Positions 1 through 44,853 of a DNA stretch of 64,000 bases are shown here, in pieces. The stretch is taken from assembly GCF_003334335.1 (NCBI RefSeq), contig NZ_QOWQ01000016.1; one strand, 5' to 3'. Made by a program: the position numbers and the translations under genes. A model generated the notes under the pieces. The model saw only the letters and a program-made list of their open reading frames with translations. It did no database searches and was not told the origin of the DNA. Within the stretch, counting starts at the first letter, position 1; each line of letters starts with the position of its first letter. Origin of the DNA: Escherichia coli. Lineage in GTDB: Bacteria > Pseudomonadota > Gammaproteobacteria > Enterobacterales > Enterobacteriaceae.

Positions 1-189
1 CCGTGGCGTTACTACAACGATCGCGATGTACGCACAATCGTTGAGCTGGGGAAAGCCATAGACTTCGATGCCAGAACGGCTATTCCATTCGAAGGTGAGC
101 GCCATAATGCACTTGATGACGCCCGTTACCAGGCAAAATACGTTTCAGCTATCTGGCAAAAACTGATCCCAAATCAGGCTGATTTTTAA
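1..189 (+). CDS. DnaQ/DEDDh-like 3'-5' exonuclease, C-terminal fragment (5' end outside window)
   Basis: Frame 1 is open from base 1 to TAA at 187-189; translation ends ...ERHNALDDARYQAKYVSAIWQKLIPNQADF, containing an Exo III-like H-x-A-x-x-D motif. Confidence 0.45.
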   Translation, partial: PWRYYNDRDVRTIVELGKAIDFDARTAIPFEGERHNALDDARYQAKYVSAIWQKLIPNQADF

Positions 190-253
190 TGTTCAACCCC
201 GGTCGTTGCCCACCAGCTATAGTGGCGGCGACCATGATTAGCGAACGACGCTC

Positions 254-502
254 ATGGCAAGACTTATTCTGCTCACTGAGTGGGCAAAAGAGGAATTCAG
301 TGAACCGGTCCCTACTCCGAGTACGTTAAGTAAATACGCTAAAGCCGGAATGATATTTCCTCTCCCCAAAAAAGTTGGAAGACGCTGGCGAGTGGATCCG
401 CAAGCTCGCTTTGTCGGAATGGTAAACAAGCCGGAGGTGATCGCCACAGATCACCCTGCTTTGAAGAGGATACTGGAAGATGGCGCGCCCGCGAAAATAT
501 AA
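254..502 (+). CDS. Excisionase-like protein (Xis family)
   Basis: 82-aa ORF immediately upstream of int, overlapping its start by 23 nt as in lambda xis-int; sequence pattern resembles lambda Xis. Exact start uncertain. Confidence 0.5.
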   Translation: MARLILLTEWAKEEFSEPVPTPSTLSKYAKAGMIFPLPKKVGRRWRVDPQARFVGMVNKPEVIATDHPALKRILEDGAPAKI

Positions 503-1610
503 AACCGATGTTCCGGGATTATCTCCGTATTTTGACAAAAGAAATAACAAAGTTTACTGGCGTTACAGGCATCCCATAACAGGCAAAAATCACGGTCTCG
601 GCAGTATTGACCAGAAACTGGCAGAAACTATTGCAGCAGAAGCGAACAGCCGTCTTGCCCGGCAGCAAATGGAACAAATGCTCAGTCTGCAGGAGAAAAT
701 TATTAGTGATACCGGTGGTTCATCAACCGTTACCATTTTTCTGAATAATTACAGAAAAATTCAACAGGAAAGATATGAAAACGGCGAGATCAAACTCAAC
801 ACGCTGAAACAGAAAGCGGCCCCTCTCAGGGTATTTGATGAACGTTTTGGCACCAGACCGTTAGATGCCATAACCGTAAAAGATGTGGTATCAGTACTGG
901 AAGAGTACAAGGCCAGAGGACATAACAGAATGGGACAAATTTTCAGGAAGGTACTGATCGATGTTTTCCGGGAAGCTCAGCAAACGGGCGATGTCCCGCC
1001 AGGCTTTAACCCTGCAGAATCGGCAAAAAAACCGCAGGTGCGGATATCAAGACAGCGACTGACTTTTGATGAGTGGATGATGATTTATAACGCAGCGGAA
1101 AAGGATGGTTACTTTTTACAGCGCGGTATGCTGCTGGCACTGATGACAGGCCAGCGCCTTTCAGATATTTGCAAAATGCAATTTTCGGATATCCGGGATG
1201 GTTATCTTCATGTCGAACAGCAAAAAACAGGAACCCGGATTGCCATCCCTCTGGCTCTGCGTTGCGATAAATTAAATCTCACCCTGGATGATGTGGTGTC
1301 ATCCTGCCGCGATTGCGTTCTTAGTCCGTGGCTATTGCACCACCATCACGCGAAAGGGACAGCTAAGCGCGGCGGGATGGTTAAGCCAGCAACATTAACC
1401 GTTGCATTTAAAAAAGCCCGGGATTCTGTGGATTACAACTGGCGTGCTAATGGCACCCCACCCTCTTTCCATGAGCAGAGATCTTTATCAGAGCGATTGT
1501 TCAGAGAGCAGGGGGTTGATACCAAAATTTTGCTAGGCCATTCGAATCAAAAAATGACCGATATTTACAACGATGTACGCGGTAAGGAGTGGAAAAAACT
1601 GGTCATTTGA
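480..1610 (+). CDS. Lambda-family tyrosine integrase
   Basis: 376 aa; clear similarity to lambda Int, e.g. GQRLSDICKMQFSDIRDGYLHVEQQKTGTRIAIP and C-terminal PPSFHEQRSLSERL...LLGHSNQKMTDIYNDVRGKEWKKL with the catalytic Tyr context. Confidence 0.9.
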   Translation: MARPRKYKTDVPGLSPYFDKRNNKVYWRYRHPITGKNHGLGSIDQKLAETIAAEANSRLARQQMEQMLSLQEKIISDTGGSSTVTIFLNNYRKIQQERYENGEIKLNTLKQKAAPLRVFDERFGTRPLDAITVKDVVSVLEEYKARGHNRMGQIFRKVLIDVFREAQQTGDVPPGFNPAESAKKPQVRISRQRLTFDEWMMIYNAAEKDGYFLQRGMLLALMTGQRLSDICKMQFSDIRDGYLHVEQQKTGTRIAIPLALRCDKLNLTLDDVVSSCRDCVLSPWLLHHHHAKGTAKRGGMVKPATLTVAFKKARDSVDYNWRANGTPPSFHEQRSLSERLFREQGVDTKILLGHSNQKMTDIYNDVRGKEWKKLVI

Positions 1611-1616
1611 TGACCA

Positions 1617-1650
1617 GTTTTGCAGAAGAGTTTTGCAGAGGTTTTGCAGA
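1617..1650 (+). repeat. Three direct copies of GTTTTGCAGA (1617-1626, 1630-1639, 1641-1650) between int stop and ompW stop; candidate Int arm-type sites
   Basis: Repeats read directly in the sequence; their function as arm-type sites is inference from their position next to int. Confidence 0.4.
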
Positions 1651-1655
1651 GAAAA

Positions 1656-2309
1656 TTAAAAACGATATCCTGCCGAGAACATAAACACCCACGGGTCAAG
1701 GCGTACATTGTCGCTATAACTGCCTTTAGCCAGTTTACGACCATCAGATTTATACTTCGCGGTGGTATCGATATCCATGTACCACACTGACATGTTAACC
1801 AACCAGTCACGGTTAATCAGATAATCAACCCCCACCTGCCCGGCAGCTCCCCAGGAATCTTTCAGACTGAGATCGGAAAGCCCTGCCTCTTTGCCATGAT
1901 CGTTAAATCCATTATCAAAGAAGGTGGTGTAGTTAATACCTGCCCCAACGTAAGGACGGAATTTGCTGCTGGCATCACCAAAATACCACTGCGCCATCAG
2001 TGTTGGTGGCAGATGATGAACGGTTGCAATATCGCCGGTCGCCCGGGTGCCGATTTTATGGCGGAACGGCGTCGCTGCCAGTAATTCCACACCAATGTTG
2101 TCGGTCGCCATATAAGTAAACGTAAGGCCCAGTTGCGTGTTATTGGTCACGCTGAATCCACCCAGACTTCCTAACGTACCACCAGCACCTTCTGTTGGAC
2201 GTACGGTTGCAGAACCTGCACGCATAAAAAATTCGCCTGCTTCATGCGCAAAGGCACTGCCAGAGAGAAGAGTTGTTACTGCCAAAGCCGCCACTGTTAA
2301 CTTTTTCAT
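1656..2309 (-). CDS. ompW: Outer membrane protein W
   Basis: 217 aa starting MKKLTVAALAVTTLLSGSAFA (signal peptide) and ending RLDPWVFMFSAGYRF; residues 185-201 differ from the K-12 allele as recalled. Confidence 0.9.
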   Translation of the reverse strand: MKKLTVAALAVTTLLSGSAFAHEAGEFFMRAGSATVRPTEGAGGTLGSLGGFSVTNNTQLGLTFTYMATDNIGVELLAATPFRHKIGTRATGDIATVHHLPPTLMAQWYFGDASSKFRPYVGAGINYTTFFDNGFNDHGKEAGLSDLSLKDSWGAAGQVGVDYLINRDWLVNMSVWYMDIDTTAKYKSDGRKLAKGSYSDNVRLDPWVFMFSAGYRF

Positions 2310-2458
2310 ATCCGCTCCGTCGTTATGGTTATAAAAACGTGACGAATATACCTACATTGGAGTAACAAATGATCCTACATAGATCACATTACATATGATA
2401 ATTCACCCTTTATTGATCTGGATTAATTTAGAAGTTGCATTGAGAATCCTGGTTAATG

Positions 2459-2472: not shown

Positions 2473-2665
2473 TTTTAAATATTTTCGCTACGCAAATATT
2501 AACTCGGTCGCCACTTGCCGCGATTTGCCCATGCCTGAAGGCCAGCAATTACCTCCGCTTTACAAAGATATGCTTTTCCATACAAGACCTGATGCTGCCA
2601 CCCGAGGCTTAACCAGGGTACAATTGCCCGCTAATTAACACCTGCATAAAACTCAAGGAGAGTGC

Positions 2666-3409
2666 ATGTCTATCACGGCGCAGTCCGTATACCGTGACAC
2701 CGGAAATTTCTTCCGTAATCAATTTATGACCATTCTGTTGGTATCGTTGCTATGTGCGTTTATCACAGTGGTGTTAGGGCATGTTTTCTCACCCAGTGAT
2801 GCACAGCTTGCGCAGCTCAATGACGGCGTGCCCGTTAGCGGCAGTAGTGGGTTGTTCGACCTGGTTCAGAATATGTCACCGGAACAGCAACAAATTTTGC
2901 TGCAGGCTTCAGCGGCGTCCACTTTTTCAGGATTAATCGGTAACGCCATTCTCGCCGGAGGCGTAATATTAATTATCCAGCTGGTGTCTGCGGGTCAGAG
3001 AGTCAGTGCGCTGCGAGCTATTGGTGCCAGTGCGCCGATATTGCCAAAGTTATTTATTCTGATTTTTCTGACTACCCTTTTAGTACAGATTGGCATCATG
3101 CTGGTGGTCGTTCCGGGAATTATCATGGCCATTTTACTGGCCCTGGCACCGGTGATGTTGGTACAGGACAAAATGGGCGTTTTTGCCTCGATGCGTAGCA
3201 GTATGCGGCTGACTTGGGCGAATATGCGTCTGGTGGCACCCGCAGTACTGAGCTGGTTGCTGGCAAAAACACTGTTGCTGCTTTTTGCCTCTTCTTTTGC
3301 CGCATTAACCCCGGAAATTGGTGCCGTACTGGCGAACACCTTGAGCAACCTGATTTCAGCCATATTGCTCATCTATCTGTTCCGCCTGTATATGTTGATT
3401 CGCCAATAA
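2666..3409 (+). CDS. yciC: UPF0259 inner membrane protein YciC
   Basis: 247 aa, hydrophobic; N-terminus [16 protein letters not shown] matches YciC; conserved position next to yciB. Confidence 0.9.
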
Positions 3410-3438
3410 CCTTAAGCATTTGATTACGGAATCGTAAA

Positions 3439-11586: not shown

Positions 11587-12495
11587 TTAACGATCTTTCG
11601 GGTCGAGGGCATCACGCAAGCCATCGCCGATAAAGTTGAAACAAAACAGCGTCACCACGAGGAATCCCGCTGGGAACAACAATAACCATGGAGAGACTTC
11701 CATCGATTTCGCGCCATCACTCAGCAATGCACCCCAGCTGCTTAACGGCTCTTGCGTACCCAACCCCAGGAAGCTAAGGAAAGATTCAAAGAGGATCATG
11801 CTGGGCACCAGAAGTGATGCGTAGACCACCACCACACCGAGTACATTCGGCACAATGTGGCGAATAACAATGCCCGATGTCGATACACCGCCAACTTGTG
11901 CCGCCTCAATAAACTCTTTGCGCTTCAGACTCAGGGTTTGCCCACGCACAATACGAGCCATATCCAGCCAGGAAACCATGCCTATCGCCACGAAAATCAG
12001 CAGGATGTTTTGACCGAAAAAGGTCACCAGCAAAATGACGAAGAACATGAATGGGAAGGAGTTGAGGATTTCCAGCAGACGCATCATTACCGAATCCACT
12101 TTACCGCCCAGATAACCGGAAAGCGAACCATAAAGTGTCCCGACGACCACAGCCACCAGTGCCGCAGCAACACCGACCATGAGTGAGATACGCCCGCCAA
12201 TCGCAACGCGCACAAGCAGGTCGCGACCGGATGAGTCAGTACCAAAGTAGTGACCGGACTCCATATCCGGGGCGCTGGACATCATCGCCCAGTCAGTATC
12301 GTCATAGGCAAACTGGGAAAGCATCGGTGCCAGGATTACAAATAACGCGATCAGCACCAGCACTATCAGACTGGCAACCGCCGCACGGTTATGCATAAAA
12401 CGTCGACGTGCGTCCTGCCACAAGCTGCGCCCTTCGACCTCCAGCTTTTCACTGAAATTTTCCAGCGTCTCGCTGTTTTTCTTACTTAACATCAT
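11587..12495 (-). CDS. oppC: Oligopeptide ABC transporter permease OppC
   Basis: 302 aa polytopic membrane protein of the binding-protein-dependent permease family; synteny. Confidence 0.95.
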   Translation of the reverse strand: MMLSKKNSETLENFSEKLEVEGRSLWQDARRRFMHNRAAVASLIVLVLIALFVILAPMLSQFAYDDTDWAMMSSAPDMESGHYFGTDSSGRDLLVRVAIGGRISLMVGVAAALVAVVVGTLYGSLSGYLGGKVDSVMMRLLEILNSFPFMFFVILLVTFFGQNILLIFVAIGMVSWLDMARIVRGQTLSLKRKEFIEAAQVGGVSTSGIVIRHIVPNVLGVVVVYASLLVPSMILFESFLSFLGLGTQEPLSSWGALLSDGAKSMEVSPWLLLFPAGFLVVTLFCFNFIGDGLRDALDPKDR

Positions 12496-12509
12496 CGCGA
12501 GCTCCAGTA

Positions 12510-13430
12510 TCAGTAACGGATTTTCGGGTCGATAACCGCATATAGCACATCGACAATGGCATTAAACAAAATGGTTAAAGCACCAACCAGGATGGTCAGG
12601 CTTAACACTAAGGAATAGTCACGGTTCAATGCGCCATTAACGAACAGTTGTCCAATCCCCGGCAAACCATAAATGGTTTCGATAACCATAGAACCGGTAA
12701 TAATGCCGACAAATGCGGGGCCCATATAAGAGAGCACGGGTAACAGAGCAGGTTTTAATGCGTGACGTAAAATGATCCGCCGCATAGGTAACCCTTTCGC
12801 CCGGGCAGTACGAATAAAATTGGAGTGTAATACTTCAATCATAGAGCCACGGGTAATACGCGCAATACTGGCGATATAAGCGAGTGACAACGCCACCATC
12901 GGCAATATCATGAATTTAAGCGCCCCACCATTCCAGCCACCGCCCGGCAGCCAATGCAAAATGATCGCAAATATCATGACTAATAATGGTGCAACCACAA
13001 AACTGGGGATAACAACCCCGGTCATTGCCAGCCCCATCACGGTATAGTCCCATTTGGTGTTTTGTTTTAATGCGGCAATAACGCCAGCACTAACACCCAG
13101 TATTACCGCAAGGAAAAATGCTGCGGCTCCCAGTTTGGCAGAAACGGGAAAACTGGATGCAACCAAGTCATTGACCGAATAATCTTTATATTTAAACGAT
13201 GGACCGAAATCACCGTGCGCCAGTTGTTTCAGGTAGCTGAAATACTGTGTCATGATCGGATCATTAAGATGATATTTCGCTTCGATATTGGCCATCACTT
13301 CTGGCGGTAAAGTACGTTCGCCGGTAAAAGGGCTTCCCGGCGCGAGGCGCATCATAAAGAACGAAATAGTAATAAGAATAAATAGCGTCGGAATCGCTTC
13401 CAGACAGCGACGTAGAATAAATTTTAACAT
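12510..13430 (-). CDS. oppB: Oligopeptide ABC transporter permease OppB
   Basis: 306 aa permease starting MLKFILRRCLEAIPTLF; synteny. Confidence 0.95.
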   Translation of the reverse strand: MLKFILRRCLEAIPTLFILITISFFMMRLAPGSPFTGERTLPPEVMANIEAKYHLNDPIMTQYFSYLKQLAHGDFGPSFKYKDYSVNDLVASSFPVSAKLGAAAFFLAVILGVSAGVIAALKQNTKWDYTVMGLAMTGVVIPSFVVAPLLVMIFAIILHWLPGGGWNGGALKFMILPMVALSLAYIASIARITRGSMIEVLHSNFIRTARAKGLPMRRIILRHALKPALLPVLSYMGPAFVGIITGSMVIETIYGLPGIGQLFVNGALNRDYSLVLSLTILVGALTILFNAIVDVLYAVIDPKIRY

Positions 13431-13515
13431 TGCCCTACCTTCTGGCCTGTGCCTTCTGTAATGCGATAAAAATCAGACACCGTGGAGCAGGACACTCCTG
13501 CCCCACGTATTGCCA

Positions 13516-15147
13516 TTAGTGCTTCACAATGTACATATTCCGGGTATAGGTATTATCCAGCGGATCTTTGCCGGTATAGCCACCAACCCACGGTTTCACC
13601 AGACGCGCATTCACGTAGTAATAAACAGGAACAATGGCCGAATCCTTATCCAGCTGTTGTTCTGCTTTAGTGTACAGAGCTGTGCGCTGCGCCTCGTCAG
13701 TCACTTTCAGCGTTTCCGCCATAATGCTGTCAAAGGCCGGGCTCTTATAATGCGCGGTATTCATCGAGCTGTTCGAAAGCATGGTGTTCAGGAAGGAAGT
13801 TGGTTCGTTGTAGTCAGCACACCAGCCTGCACGGGCCACATCAAAAGTACCCTGGTGACGGGTGTCGAGGAACGTTTTCCACTCCTGGTTAACCAGTTTG
13901 ACGTTTACACCAATGTTTTTCTTCCACAATGAAGAGGCAGCAATCGCCAGCTTTTTATGCAGATCGGAGGTGTTATACAACAGGTTGATGGTCAACGGTT
14001 TGTCTGCGGTATAACCCGCTTCAGCCAGCAGTTTTTTCGCTTCTTCGTTACGTTTTTCCTGGCTCCAGCCAAACCATTCTGGCTGAGTCAATTTTGCGCC
14101 ATCAGTATACGGTGGAGTGTAACCATAGGCGGGCATGTCGCCCTGCGCTTTCACTTTATTAACAATGATATCGCGGTCCATACCTAGTTTCAGTGCGGTA
14201 CGCACACGCACATCGTTGAATGGCGGTTTCTGGTTGTTAATTTCGTAATAGTAAGTGCACAGGTATGGATCAACGTGAACTTCGTCCGGGATCTCTTTTT
14301 TCAGCTTCTGGAACAATTCGATCGGCATGTTGTTATACGTCATGTCGATTTCACCACTACGGTAGCGGTTGACATCGGTAACTTCAGAAGCAATAGGCAA
14401 ATAGGTTACCTGGTTAATAACGGTTTTCGCGTTGTTCCAGTAGGTCGGGCTGCGTTCAAGAACGATTCGTTCGTTTACGACCCAATCTTTTAAGGTATAG
14501 GCACCGTTGGTGACGATATTACCAGGCTGGGTCCATTTTTCGCCGAATTTCTCGATAGCGGCTTTTGGCACCGGTGAAGTTGATGGGTGAACAAGTAATT
14601 TATAGAAGTACGGAACGGGTTCACTTAAGGTGACTTCTAATGTGTGATCATCAATAGCTTTCACGCCGAGATCGGTAATCGGTTTTTTCCCTTCAAGAAT
14701 TTCATCAATACCGGCGATATGCCCATATTGCAGATAACTGGCATACGGAGAAGCAGTGTTCGGATCAACAGAACGTTGCCAGCTATACACAAAGTCTTGT
14801 GCTGTGACTGGCGTGCCATCAGACCATTTCGCATCTTTACGCAAATGGAAGGTCCAGACTTTCGCGTCTTTATTATCCCAGGATTCAGCGACGCCAGGTG
14901 CTGGATGACCGTCAAGATCGCTGACCAGTAAGCCTTCAAACAGGTCTCGGCTGATATTAGACTCCGGAACACCTTCAATTTTGTGCGGATCTAATGACTG
15001 AACTTCTGAACCATTGTTACGTACCAGTGTTTGTTTTTCCGCCAGTGTGACGCCTGCGGGTACATCAGCTGCCAGCGCGACATTCCCTGCCATTAGCGCA
15101 GCCAGAACGCCAGCTGCTACTAAACTTCTCTTGGTGATGTTGGTCAT
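13516..15147 (-). CDS. oppA: Periplasmic oligopeptide-binding protein OppA
   Basis: 543 aa from MTNITKRSLVAAGVLAALMAGNVALA (signal peptide); ORF-track start at 15219 is an extension. Confidence 0.95.
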   Translation of the reverse strand: MTNITKRSLVAAGVLAALMAGNVALAADVPAGVTLAEKQTLVRNNGSEVQSLDPHKIEGVPESNISRDLFEGLLVSDLDGHPAPGVAESWDNKDAKVWTFHLRKDAKWSDGTPVTAQDFVYSWQRSVDPNTASPYASYLQYGHIAGIDEILEGKKPITDLGVKAIDDHTLEVTLSEPVPYFYKLLVHPSTSPVPKAAIEKFGEKWTQPGNIVTNGAYTLKDWVVNERIVLERSPTYWNNAKTVINQVTYLPIASEVTDVNRYRSGEIDMTYNNMPIELFQKLKKEIPDEVHVDPYLCTYYYEINNQKPPFNDVRVRTALKLGMDRDIIVNKVKAQGDMPAYGYTPPYTDGAKLTQPEWFGWSQEKRNEEAKKLLAEAGYTADKPLTINLLYNTSDLHKKLAIAASSLWKKNIGVNVKLVNQEWKTFLDTRHQGTFDVARAGWCADYNEPTSFLNTMLSNSSMNTAHYKSPAFDSIMAETLKVTDEAQRTALYTKAEQQLDKDSAIVPVYYYVNARLVKPWVGGYTGKDPLDNTYTRNMYIVKH

Positions 15148-19710: not shown

Positions 19711-20727
19711 CGGCCCCTTCTGGGCAATGCCGATCAGTTAAGGATTAGTTGACCGATCCTTAAACTGAGGCACTATAACGGCTTCCACAACAGGGAGCCG
19801 TTTTCTTATGCCACTTCTCAATGATCTGCTCGATTTCAGTGACCATCCGCTTATGCCTCCGCCCTCTGCACAACTATTTGCAGAACACCTTCCCACCGAG
19901 TGGATACAACACTGCCTGACGCTTTCTGCTCATGCGACCGTTCGCCGCCGTCGTTTACCGGGGGACATGGTTATCTGGATGGTGGTGCAATGAGCCAATT
20001 ACCGATGTTGTTCGCCGTCTGAACCTGAGCGCGGATGGCGAAGCGGGGATGAACCTGCTGGCCCGCAGCGCTGTCACCCAGGCGCGTCAGCGCGTGGGGG
20101 CCGCCCCAGTGGAATGGCTCTTCCGCCAGACCGCACAGACAGGGGCGCGGAACGTTACCTGAAGGATGACTGGCACGGCCTGCAACTTTTTGCCATTGAT
20201 GGCGCACAGTTCAGGACACCTGATAAACCCGAGCTGCGTGAATATTATGGGTCTGCCAACACATCCACTAAGCGGCAGAACGCCTACCCGGTTATGCGTC
20301 TGGTGGCCTTAATGAACCTGGGAAGTCACATTCTGCTGAATGCCGTGACCGCACCTTACCGGCAGAGCGAAACTGTGCTGGCCCACTCCATGCTCGCCAC
20401 CATCCCGGATAACTCTATTACGTTGTTTGATAAACTTTTTTACAGCGAAGACCTGCTGCTGACGCTGAACCAGAAGGGTTGTAACCGCCACTGGCTACTG
20501 CCTGCGTGGAAGAATATCGCATCAGAAATGATAGAGCTGGGAAACACGGCGTCACCAGGGACCATCCCGAAACGACTGGAGCATCTTCGGGGTGCTCTGG
20601 AAGTGGTGTTCATAACAAAACGCCCCCGACCATCAAGGCCGAGGTCGGTTAAGATATCAAAAACCCGTTATCCTGTGAAACATAGTGCCGCTCCTCTTAA
20701 GTGAACGGCATTGCCCTTCTGGGGCCG
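19711..20727 (+). mobile_element. Degenerate IS4-family-like insertion sequence remnant bounded by imperfect 21-bp inverted termini
   Basis: Termini CGGCCCCTTCTGGGCAATGCC (19711-19731) and GGCATTGCCCTTCTGGGGCCG (20707-20727) are inverted copies matching 17/21; they flank the frameshifted transposase reading frames. Confidence 0.5.
19808..20704 (+). pseudogene. insZ: Transposase pseudogene (frameshifted, truncated); corresponds to K-12 insZ/ychG
   Basis: Three consecutive reading frames (19808-19993, 19932-20162, 20114-20704) together encode transposase-like sequence; total length is too short for an intact transposase. Confidence 0.6.
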
Positions 20728-44783: not shown

Positions 44784-44853
44784 AAAGAGAAAACCCCCGC
44801 ACGTTGAGAGGTAAAACCTGACAACAAAACGGGGGCTAATCTTGAAACCAGAC
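44784..44853 (-). ncRNA. rdl: Rdl-type antisense RNA (type I antitoxin) for the adjacent ldr toxin
   Basis: Minus strand reads GTCTGGTTTCAAGATTAGCCCCCGTTTTGTTGTCAGGTTTTACCTCTCAACGTGCGGGGGTTTTCTCTTT, with CCCCCG/CGGGGG stem plus U-run terminator; ends are approximate. Confidence 0.45.

What the first reader, a model, noticed from the sequence alone, without database searches (positions are those of the whole stretch)
1..1660. Lambdoid prophage end (exo fragment, xis, int) inserted at the 3' end of ompW
A lambda-family integrase with its overlapping excisionase lies 46 bp from the ompW stop codon, with an exonuclease fragment running off the window start. In K-12 this side of ompW is followed by yciE/yciF/yciG, so this is an accessory insertion. 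The prophage body and its cargo lie outside the window.
Basis: partly seen in the sequence, partly recalled or inferred. Interest (0 to 1): 0.65.

Follow-up and report, generated by a model that had tools for sequence, protein, structure and literature searches.

The report
Known ompW-integrating lambdoid prophage end
This is the integrase end of a common, already described family of E. coli lambda-like prophages ("PPompW") that insert inside the outer-membrane gene ompW and rebuild its last 33 codons from phage DNA, so the finding is real but ordinary.

Summary
Window 1-189 encodes the last 62 residues of an 822-aa 3'-5' exonuclease. The excisionase gene is at 254-502 and a full-length lambda-type integrase at 480-1610. 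ompW converges on them at 1656-2309 (- strand), 45 bp away.

The interpretation also holds: this is an accessory lambdoid prophage at the ompW 3' end, where K-12 has yciE. Two corrections apply:
- The attachment junction is inside ompW. A 31-bp identity block at 1759-1789 is shared with K-12 attB and with the far junction in related lysogens. Phage DNA therefore runs to about 1758, not 1660, and supplies OmpW codons 185-217, the stop codon and a terminator-like hairpin.
- The "exo" gene is a DEDDh-type (Rv2179c-like) exonuclease, not lambda Exo.

The element is the published PPompW family (Nakamura 2021, 44% of 767 genomes). Here 1706 of 5426 complete genomes carry the junction, and 3431 have an uninterrupted ompW-yciE.

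One modest twist: this window carries a minority "long" phage-borne ompW tail. It is 15 bp longer and gives a 217-aa OmpW with a rewritten last inter-strand loop. About 164 records have it; about 1565 have the published short tail.

The prophage body lies outside the window. It is about 49 kb in two relatives.

Verdict: already known, low interest.

The parts
1..189 (+). 3' end (62 codons plus stop) of the prophage 3'-5' exonuclease gene, which is 822 aa in relatives. The gene runs off the window start.
   Evidence: PHROG exonuclease families, E 1e-23 to 5e-40. Identical region in NZ_CM149869 annotated as 3'-5' exonuclease WP_097518794.1. Pfam Rv2179c-like PF16473 at residues 641-812, E 6e-67.
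254..502 (+). xis, excisionase, 82 aa
   Evidence: PHROG 629 excisionase, E 4e-35. Pfam Exc PF07825, E 1e-7. Annotated xisE in PPompW phage records.
480..1610 (+). int, lambda-type tyrosine integrase, 376 aa, with an N-terminal arm-binding domain. It overlaps xis by 23 bp. Catalytic R226, K249, H331, R334, H354 and Y363 are conserved against lambda Int R212, K235, H308, R311, H333 and Y342.
   Evidence: Pfam Arm-DNA-bind_1 (E 2e-21), Phage_int_M and Phage_integrase. PDB lambda Int 5j0n/1z1b, E 1e-55 over residues 14-375, with catalytic residues read from that alignment. 99.2% nucleotide identity to intE of the PPompW phages.
1595..1621 (.). Perfect 12-bp inverted repeat (AAAACTGGTCAT / ATGACCAGTTTT) spanning the int stop codon. 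On the ompW strand it is followed by a run of six U. It looks like a bidirectional terminator supplied by the phage, replacing the native ompW terminator.
   Evidence: the repeat finder I2. RNA fold of 1585-1660 on the - strand: -17 kcal/mol, z -5.3, 0 of 200 shuffles as stable. The simple consensus scan did not flag it.
1617..1651 (+). Three tandem copies of GTTTTGCAGA(G/A). These are candidate P'-arm arm-type Int binding sites, analogous to lambda P'1-P'3.
   Evidence: the repeat finder D1. The 10-mer occurs 3 times in 64 kb, only here, against 0.15 expected. It is conserved in the O157, O145 and L010 relatives. One further copy lies in the P arm, about 130 bp from the core, in a related lysogen (L003 27680). 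Binding was not tested.
1656..1758 (-). Phage-borne replacement 3' end of ompW, the 'long' cassette. It comprises the third base of codon 184, codons 185-217 and the stop codon. It encodes KYKSDGRKLAKGSYSDN, 5 residues longer than in K-12, followed by the unchanged last strand VRLDPWVFMFSAGYRF.
   Evidence: Diverges from K-12 immediately after the core and carries a 15-bp in-frame insertion. The K-12-type 3' end is left at the far junction in relatives. The last 16 codons differ from other alleles only at synonymous sites.
1759..1789 (-). att core: a 31-bp identity block (CAGTGTGGTACATGGATATCGATACCACCGC on the - strand) shared by this junction, the far junction and K-12 attB. Strand exchange must lie within it. 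The block is 28 bp when compared with the majority 'short-cassette' phages.
   Evidence: Three-way alignment and five-way alignment. It occurs once in the window and once at each junction or attB in the fetched loci.
1790..2309 (-). Chromosomal (K-12-type) 5' portion of ompW, codons 1-173. Together with the core and the phage tail it forms a 217-aa chimeric OmpW.
   Evidence: Identical to K-12 ompW over the aligned part upstream of the core. The protein is identical to K-12 OmpW to residue 184. The whole protein passes the NCBIfam OmpW equivalog cut-off.

Best explanation
Window 1-1789 is the int-proximal junction (attL, B-O-P') of a PPompW-type lambdoid prophage integrated inside ompW.

**Mechanism.** This is inferred from homology to lambda and from published work on a 99%-identical element. 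A lambda-type tyrosine integrase binds arm-type sites through its arm-binding domain; the candidates here are three GTTTTGCAGA repeats next to int. Its core-binding and catalytic domains bind core sites within the 31-bp block at codons 174-184 of ompW. The integrase recombined attP with that block. Xis, encoded just upstream and overlapping int, directs the reverse reaction.

**Consequence for ompW.** The phage P' arm carries its own copy of the ompW 3' end. Integration therefore does not truncate OmpW. It swaps the last 33 codons, the stop codon and the terminator for phage versions, and it displaces the original 3' end about 49 kb away, next to yciE, as seen in relatives. The result here is a 217-aa chimeric OmpW. 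Its final beta-strand is unchanged. The preceding connection between the last two strands is rewritten and 5 residues longer. General OmpW-family topology places that connection in extracellular loop L4.

**Shown and inferred.** The gene identities, the junction position, the polymorphism of the site and the chimeric reading frame are shown. Int and Xis activity, the arm-site assignment, terminator function and the state of the prophage body in the source strain are inferred.
For: - **Gene identities.**
- **Junction mapping against K-12 and against the far junction of related lysogens.**
- **Prophage body in relatives.** About 49-kb lambdoid prophages with head, tail, lysis, Q and immunity genes lie between the two junctions in NZ_CM149869 and in ML35.
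- **Match to published phages.** 99.2% identity over window 1-1700 to GenBank 'Enterobacteria phage PPompW_*' records. These annotate intE, xisE and a 'duplication due to insertion'.
- **Published experiments.** PPompW has a 121-bp attL/R in ompW. It excises and circularises after mitomycin C. It was found in 44% of 767 complete genomes (PMC8112680).
- **Hotspot status.** ompW is listed as a prophage integration hotspot (PMC3603311).
- **Site polymorphism.** 1706 of 5426 genomes are occupied by this junction and 3431 of 5426 are contiguous.
- **Catalytic residues.** All six are conserved.
- **Arm-site candidate.** The repeat is unique to this spot, with 0.15 copies expected by chance.
- **Selection on the phage-borne tail.** It stays in frame. 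In the last 16 codons it shows only synonymous changes: 4 against the short cassette and 7 against the native long allele. This implies selection for a working OmpW.
Against: - The window stops inside the exonuclease gene, so the prophage body of the source strain is unseen.
- The closest genome is not the source. It has 27 mismatches over 22.4 kb and an IS66 that the window lacks.
- Nakamura et al. report that all PPompWs they examined appear defective, and that those of phylogroup A strains are highly degraded by deletions.
- Bobay et al. describe ompW as 'disrupted' by integration. That disagrees with the intact chimeric ORF seen here.
- No binding, excision or expression data exist for this particular variant.
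- The loop's extracellular location rests on known OmpW-family topology (PMC2993939). My single-sequence AlphaFold2 model was unusable.
Confidence: 0.9

Rival explanations
1. Decayed remnant. In the source strain only the int-xis-exonuclease module, perhaps with a short early region, survives at ompW. The rest of the prophage has been deleted, so nothing mobile or cargo-bearing remains.
For: The window ends inside the exonuclease gene. Nakamura et al. found all examined PPompWs defective, with those of phylogroup A strains highly degraded by deletions. ML35's copy has a deletion fusing the head protease and capsid genes.
Against: int, xis and the visible exonuclease end are intact ORFs. The int length and catalytic residues match the published PPompW copies, which excise and circularise after mitomycin C. 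The two relatives examined, at 99.8% and 100% identity over window 1-2400, carry about 49 kb of prophage.
Confidence: 0.12
2. The 217-aa ompW is a native chromosomal allele, and the phage inserted in the spacer downstream of its stop codon, so phage DNA ends near 1655.
For: A native, prophage-free 217-aa ompW allele with a similarly long last loop exists in E. coli. In strain Z1323CEC0015 ompW is followed directly by trpA.
Against: - Upstream of the core the window is K-12-type. Downstream it matches neither native allele: 70 of 93 aligned bases with K-12, plus a 15-bp insertion, and 77 of 108 with the native long allele.
- In lysogens the displaced K-12-type 3' end sits at the far junction, starting exactly at the core.
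- The same Int and arm repeats travel with a different ompW tail in O157 and O145 lysogens. The tail is therefore phage-linked, not host-linked.
Confidence: 0.03
3. The int-ompW arrangement is ancestral in E. coli, and K-12 lost it.
For: The junction is frequent: 31% of complete genomes here and 44% in Nakamura's set.
Against: 63% of genomes have an uninterrupted ompW-yciE. Occupied genomes retain a duplicated ompW 3' fragment at the far end, which is the signature of insertion rather than deletion. The intervening DNA is phage structural, lysis and regulatory genes.
Confidence: 0.01

Closest known systems
PPompW prophages of STEC/EPEC and other E. coli (Nakamura et al. 2021, PLoS Pathog, PMC8112680; GenBank LC567818-LC567841)
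   Same: - Same integrase, excisionase and exonuclease module: 99.2% nucleotide identity over window 1-1700.
- Same insertion point in ompW and the same arm repeats and hairpin.
- Same overall lambda-like organisation in relatives.
- Wide distribution across E. coli.
   Different: - The published O145:H28 reference, like the O157:H7 lysogen examined, carries a shorter phage-borne ompW tail. It has a 121-bp att duplication and gives a 212-aa OmpW with loop KYKSGVTTVKDS.
- This window has a tail 15 bp longer, giving a 217-aa OmpW with loop KYKSDGRKLAKGSYSDN.
- The long form is the minority: about 164 of about 1729 occupied records.
- Whether this copy carries the T3SS-effector locus or the 21-bp internal attB of the STEC copies cannot be seen from the window. 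The relative H1 shows no effector genes at its tail end.
Bacteriophage lambda Int/Xis site-specific recombination
   Same: - Int aligns with lambda Int over the arm-binding, core-binding and catalytic domains, with all six catalytic residues kept.
- xis lies immediately upstream and overlaps int.
- int is adjacent to the attachment site.
- Three tandem candidate arm sites sit on the int side, like P'1-P'3.
   Different: - The attB lies inside a protein-coding gene rather than in the gal-bio intergenic site.
- The arm motif is different: GTTTTGCAGA.
- The candidate arm sites lie about 110-170 bp from the core, with the ompW tail in between.
- The neighbouring 'exo' gene is not lambda Exo.
Phage 21 and e14 integration into icd (Hill et al. 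1989, recalled from memory; Wang et al. 1997, cited in PMC3603311)
   Same: Integration is within the 3' part of a chromosomal protein gene. The phage carries a substitute 3' end, so a full-length ORF is kept and the displaced original end is left at the other junction (for icd; for this element).
   Different: For icd, the ORF length is unchanged. Here the substitute end rewrites and lengthens one loop of an outer-membrane protein by 5 residues. Bobay et al. classed ompW as disrupted, which the sequence here does not support.

Membership tests
Lambda-type (arm-binding) tyrosine integrases | N-terminal arm-type DNA-binding domain | tested here: met
   Pfam Arm-DNA-bind_1 PF09003, residues 2-71, E 1.6e-21
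Lambda-type (arm-binding) tyrosine integrases | C-terminal tyrosine-recombinase catalytic domain with the R-K-H-R-H-Y residues | tested here: met
   Pfam Phage_integrase, residues 193-367. R226, K249, H331, R334, H354 and Y363 align with lambda Int R212, K235, H308, R311, H333 and Y342.
Lambda-type (arm-binding) tyrosine integrases | Arm-type binding sites flanking the core in attP | tested here: inconclusive
   Three tandem GTTTTGCAGA repeats at 1617-1651, against 0.15 expected in 64 kb, and one copy in the P arm of a relative. No binding data.
Lambda-type (arm-binding) tyrosine integrases | Catalyses integration and excision at its att sites | not testable with these tools
   PPompW copies with about 99% identical int excise and circularise after mitomycin C, according to PMC8112680. 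Not tested for this copy.
Excisionase (Exc/Xis) recombination directionality factors | Small protein with an Exc-type fold, encoded next to int | tested here: met
   82 aa; Pfam Exc PF07825, E 1.4e-7; PHROG 629, E 4e-35; overlaps int by 23 bp
PPompW prophage family (criteria of Nakamura et al. 2021) | Integrase gene more than 90% identical, over more than 90% of its length, to that of O145:H28 strain 112648 | tested here: met
   99.2% identity over 100% of window 1-1700 to O145:H28 PPompW records, including intE. The criterion is quoted. Strain 112648 itself was not in the phage collection hits; the hits are the study's PPompW and Stx2a-phage records (LC5678xx series).
PPompW prophage family (criteria of Nakamura et al. 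2021) | ompW locus split by the insertion, with an att duplication at both ends | tested here: inconclusive
   The int-side junction in ompW is in the window. The far junction is outside the window and was seen only in relatives.
   The full-length relative (822 aa) has only an Rv2179c-like / RNase_T DEDDh 3'-5' exonuclease domain at residues 641-812. Precomputed Pfam hits for a homologue are YdfE_N, YdfE_C and Rv2179c-like.
OmpW family outer-membrane proteins (the chimeric product) | Full-length match to the OmpW equivalog model and to the solved OmpW barrel, including the C-terminal strand ending in Phe | tested here: met
   NCBIfam NF008202, 394 bits against a cut-off of 287, covering residues 1-217. 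PDB 2f1t/2mhl, E 1e-122. The only divergence is at residues 185-201, with 5 extra residues.
Intact, inducible prophage | Complete set of replication, lysis, head and tail genes, and a second att junction | not testable with these tools
   The body lies upstream of window position 1. Relatives carry about 49 kb: H1 appears largely complete (one frameshifted gene in the lysis region) and ML35 has a head-gene deletion.

The most novel reading that the evidence does not exclude
PPompW-type phages carry interchangeable ompW 3' cassettes, a common short one and the rarer long one seen here. On lysogenisation these rewrite the last surface loop (L4) of OmpW while preserving the barrel.

OmpW is the colicin S4 receptor and the receptor of E. 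coli phage RB68. Integration itself could therefore act as lysogenic conversion of a receptor epitope, changing sensitivity to OmpW-dependent phages, colicins or antibodies without any dedicated cargo gene.

The evidence does not exclude this:
- the loop is hypervariable between cassettes;
- the adjacent strand is under purifying selection;
- both cassettes differ from both native alleles.

I found no paper that describes it. However, loops of outer-membrane proteins diverge fastest anyway, so the pattern could simply reflect relaxed constraint and different donor hosts.
Probability: 0.2. Interest if true: 0.45.

Novelty: already known. Interest (0 to 1): 0.12.

Why it matters
The finding matters little for discovery. 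It is a textbook-style att junction of a prophage family that has already been named, sequenced many times, shown to excise, and counted across E. coli.

It is useful for annotation in three ways:
- The prophage boundary belongs inside ompW, at 1759-1789.
- The ompW of lysogens is a host-phage chimera. Its last 33 codons and its terminator are phage DNA.
- "Disrupted ompW" is the wrong description.

The one point that might repay a small experiment is that the family carries at least two alternative OmpW tails, which differ in the loop before the last strand. OmpW is a receptor for colicin S4 and for phage RB68.

Tried and rejected
- **AlphaFold2 model.** I ran a single-sequence prediction of the chimeric OmpW to place the swapped segment on the barrel. 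Mean pLDDT was 28.5, which is unusable. The loop assignment therefore rests on the solved OmpW match and on published family topology.
- **Homology search with the OmpW tail.** The search for homologous proteins with the 58-residue tail returned only short fragments of 101 aa or less. These are mostly junction ORFs, so it could not identify a donor species for the long cassette. It did reveal the alternative tails.
- **Terminator scan.** The consensus terminator scan did not flag the 1595-1621 hairpin. The RNA fold did.
- **Source genome.** I considered whether NZ_CM149869 is the source genome. It is not: it has 27 mismatches over 22.4 kb and an IS66 between narI and tyrT that the window lacks.
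- **Native-allele reading.** I considered that the 217-aa OmpW is simply the native long allele. Rejected: the identity is only 77 of 108 bases, and the displaced K-12-type end is present at the far junction in relatives.
- **Second attB near ygfX.** I considered a second, homologous attB near ygfX, after finding the same Int there in one assembly. K-12 has no core-like sequence there, and only 1 of 5426 complete genomes shows that junction. It is a rare secondary-site or rearrangement event.
- **OmpW crystal-structure paper.** The paper (doi 10.1074/jbc.M512365200) is not held in the library.
Full report
**What is in the sequence.** The ORF scan and the raw sequence show, on the + strand:
- An ORF running in from the window start and stopping at 187-189.
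- An 82-codon ORF at 254-502.
- A 376-codon ORF at 480-1610 that overlaps the previous one by 23 bp.

A 217-codon ORF lies on the - strand at 1656-2309. Its stop codon is 45 bp from the stop of the 376-codon ORF.

Family searches identify the four:
- **Exonuclease C-terminus.** PHROG exonuclease families, E down to 5e-40.
- **Excisionase.** PHROG 629, E 4e-35; Pfam Exc.
- **Integrase.** It has a lambda arm-binding domain plus a tyrosine-recombinase domain. It aligns with lambda Int crystal-structure sequences over residues 14-375 at E 1e-55. R226, K249, H331, R334, H354 and Y363 match the six lambda catalytic residues.
- **OmpW.** NCBIfam equivalog, 394 bits against a cut-off of 287.

The genes downstream are yciC, yciB, yciA, tonB and yciI. 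This is the K-12 order read backwards, and K-12 has yciE-yciF-yciG where the window has int.

**Where the junction really is.** I aligned the window with K-12. The two are identical through ompW up to ...GATACCACCGC. They then diverge sharply, including a 15-bp in-frame insertion in the window. They become similar again (3 mismatches in 53 bp) over the last strand and the stop codon, and are unrelated beyond that.

A three-way alignment added the far prophage junction of a related lysogen (sequence). A 31-bp block, CAGTGTGGTACATGGATATCGATACCACCGC (window 1759-1789, - strand), is the only stretch shared by both junctions and the empty site. Left of it, the window matches the chromosome. Right of it, the far junction matches the chromosome.

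The crossover therefore lies within codons 174-184 of ompW. Window 1656-1758 (codons 185-217 plus the stop codon) is phage DNA.

The block occurs once in the window and once at every junction or empty site fetched.

**Other att-region features.**
- Three tandem GTTTTGCAGA(G/A) repeats lie at 1617-1651, between int and the phage-borne ompW tail. The 10-mer occurs nowhere else in 64 kb, with 0.15 copies expected.
- One more copy lies in the opposite arm of a related prophage.
- The integrase has an arm-binding domain, so these repeats are the natural candidates for P'-arm sites. This is an inference.
- A perfect 12-bp hairpin at 1595-1621 spans the int stop codon. On the ompW strand it is followed by U6. 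It folds at -17 kcal/mol, z -5.3. It probably terminates the chimeric ompW transcript, replacing the native terminator. This too is an inference.

**The prophage body.** It is not in the window.

The best-matching genome is NZ_CM149869, which is identical over window 1-2400. It is not the source strain: it has 27 mismatches over 22.4 kb and an IS66 that the window lacks.

Both that genome and strain ML35 carry about 49 kb of lambda-like prophage upstream of the exonuclease gene. The content includes:
- DicA/DicC- or YdaS-type immunity genes;
- DicB, Q, RusA and lysis genes;
- terminase, portal, capsid and tail genes, including J and tail fibres.

In both, the prophage ends at a leftover 'OmpW family, missing N-terminus' fragment followed by yciE, yciF and yciG.

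The 'exo' gene is an 822-aa protein whose only clear domain is a C-terminal Rv2179c-like DEDDh 3'-5' exonuclease. It is not lambda Exo or RecE.

**How common, and is it known?**
- Of 5426 complete E. coli genomes, 1706 contain at least 80% of window 1-2400 in one piece.
- 3431 have an uninterrupted ompW-yciE. The insertion is accessory and the empty site is the majority state.
- The phage collection returns twelve GenBank records of 'Enterobacteria phage PPompW_*' or Stx2a phages nested in them. They are 99.1-99.2% identical over window 1-1700 and annotate intE, xisE, an exonuclease and a 'duplication due to insertion'.
- Nakamura et al. 2021 (PMC8112680) named these prophages and defined a 121-bp attL/R in ompW. 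They showed excision and circularisation after mitomycin C. They found the prophages in 44% of 767 complete genomes across 92 serotypes, and judged those they examined defective for packaging.
- Bobay et al. 2013 (PMC3603311) list ompW among the most occupied integration hotspots, citing Creuzburg et al. 2011.

The element is therefore already described.

**The one twist.**

The chimeric OmpW is 217 aa, against 212 aa in K-12. It differs only at residues 185-201: TTAKYKSDGRKLAKGSYSDNVR here, and TTANYKLGGAQQHDSVR in K-12.

The published O145:H28 PPompW, and an O157:H7 lysogen with the same junction architecture, carry a different, shorter tail: TTAKYKSGVTTVKDSVR, giving a 212-aa OmpW. A third locus with the short tail, L010, has a 375/376-identical Int.

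In a search with window 1560-1800, about 164 records match at 90% identity or better; these carry the long tail. About 1565 of the 1729 full-length matches are of the short type.

A native, prophage-free 217-aa allele also exists, with ompW directly followed by trpA and loop TEVKYKSNGAVLPAGRYSDNVR. The phage long tail resembles it in length but shares only 77 of 108 bases.

Across all four alleles the last 16 residues are identical, and the nucleotide differences there are all synonymous: 4 between the two phage cassettes and 7 between the window and the native long allele. This indicates that the phage-borne tail is selected to encode a working last strand.

OmpW-family barrels have eight strands with long extracellular loops and short periplasmic turns (PMC2993939). 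The rewritten segment is the long connection between the last two strands, so I take it to be extracellular loop L4. That is an inference; my AlphaFold2 attempt failed.

OmpW is the colicin S4 receptor (cited in PMC10132071) and the receptor of E. coli phage RB68 (bioRxiv 10.64898/2026.04.02.716166). A change in receptor epitope on lysogenisation is therefore conceivable, but it is untested. Faster divergence of surface loops is expected in any case.

**Verdict.** The element belongs to a known, very common prophage family that integrates by a lambda-type mechanism and restores the 3' end of its target gene. Novelty: already known. Interest is low (0.12). The only open question of some interest is whether the alternative phage-borne OmpW tails have a phenotype.

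Noticed in passing
window 27508-28536: Three tRNA-Tyr(GTA) genes are interleaved with four RtT repeats (Rfam RF00391). The closest genome has two tRNA-Tyr and five RtT, plus an IS66 (ISEc23) next to narI that the window lacks. This looks like copy-number variation in the tyrT/tyrV-rtT array. A 299-codon ORF on the - strand (27499-28398) spans the repeats and is probably not a gene.
   Followed up: partly
L011 (NZ_CP148423.1 1625730-1632036), ompW at 2762-3415: Some E. coli have a native, prophage-free 217-aa ompW allele with a long last loop. It is followed directly by trpA, with no yciE, yciF or yciG. The same tail occurs on contigs labelled O25b:H4-ST131. The last loop of OmpW is therefore polymorphic in the species even without phage.
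   Followed up: partly
L010 4001-5350 (GCA_964036875.1); also H92 NZ_CP196031.1 939175-939975: The same integrase (375/376 identical), with the short ompW tail and the arm repeats, sits directly after ygfX (cptA). K-12 has no core-like sequence there, and only 1 of 5426 complete genomes shows this junction. It is a rare secondary-site integration or rearrangement. The mechanism was not resolved.
   Followed up: partly
window 2549-2638: Relatives annotate a short 'YkgJ family cysteine cluster protein' pseudogene fragment between ompW and yciC. Nakamura et al. trace one of the intra-prophage attB sequences to the ykgJ/ecpE intergenic region. I did not examine whether this fragment is related.
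   Followed up: no
L014 421-1704 (O55:H7 TB182A, NZ_CP038295.1): In this lysogen the integrase CDS is annotated as 1284 bp and overlaps ompW by about 120 bp, and the junction region is 12 bp shorter than in the O157:H7 lysogen. A small deletion may have removed the int stop codon or part of the arm repeats.
   Followed up: no
window 11707-13980: 19 of the 27 mismatches between the window and the otherwise near-identical genome NZ_CM149869 cluster in about 2.3 kb of the opp operon (oppC/oppB). This suggests a recombination patch.
   Followed up: no
window 19808-20704 and 44788-44853: A frameshifted IS4-family transposase pseudogene lies between adhE and tdk, as annotated in the near-identical relative at the matching coordinates. 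The window has a single rdlD antitoxin match, whereas the relative has three Ldr toxin genes in this region.
   Followed up: no
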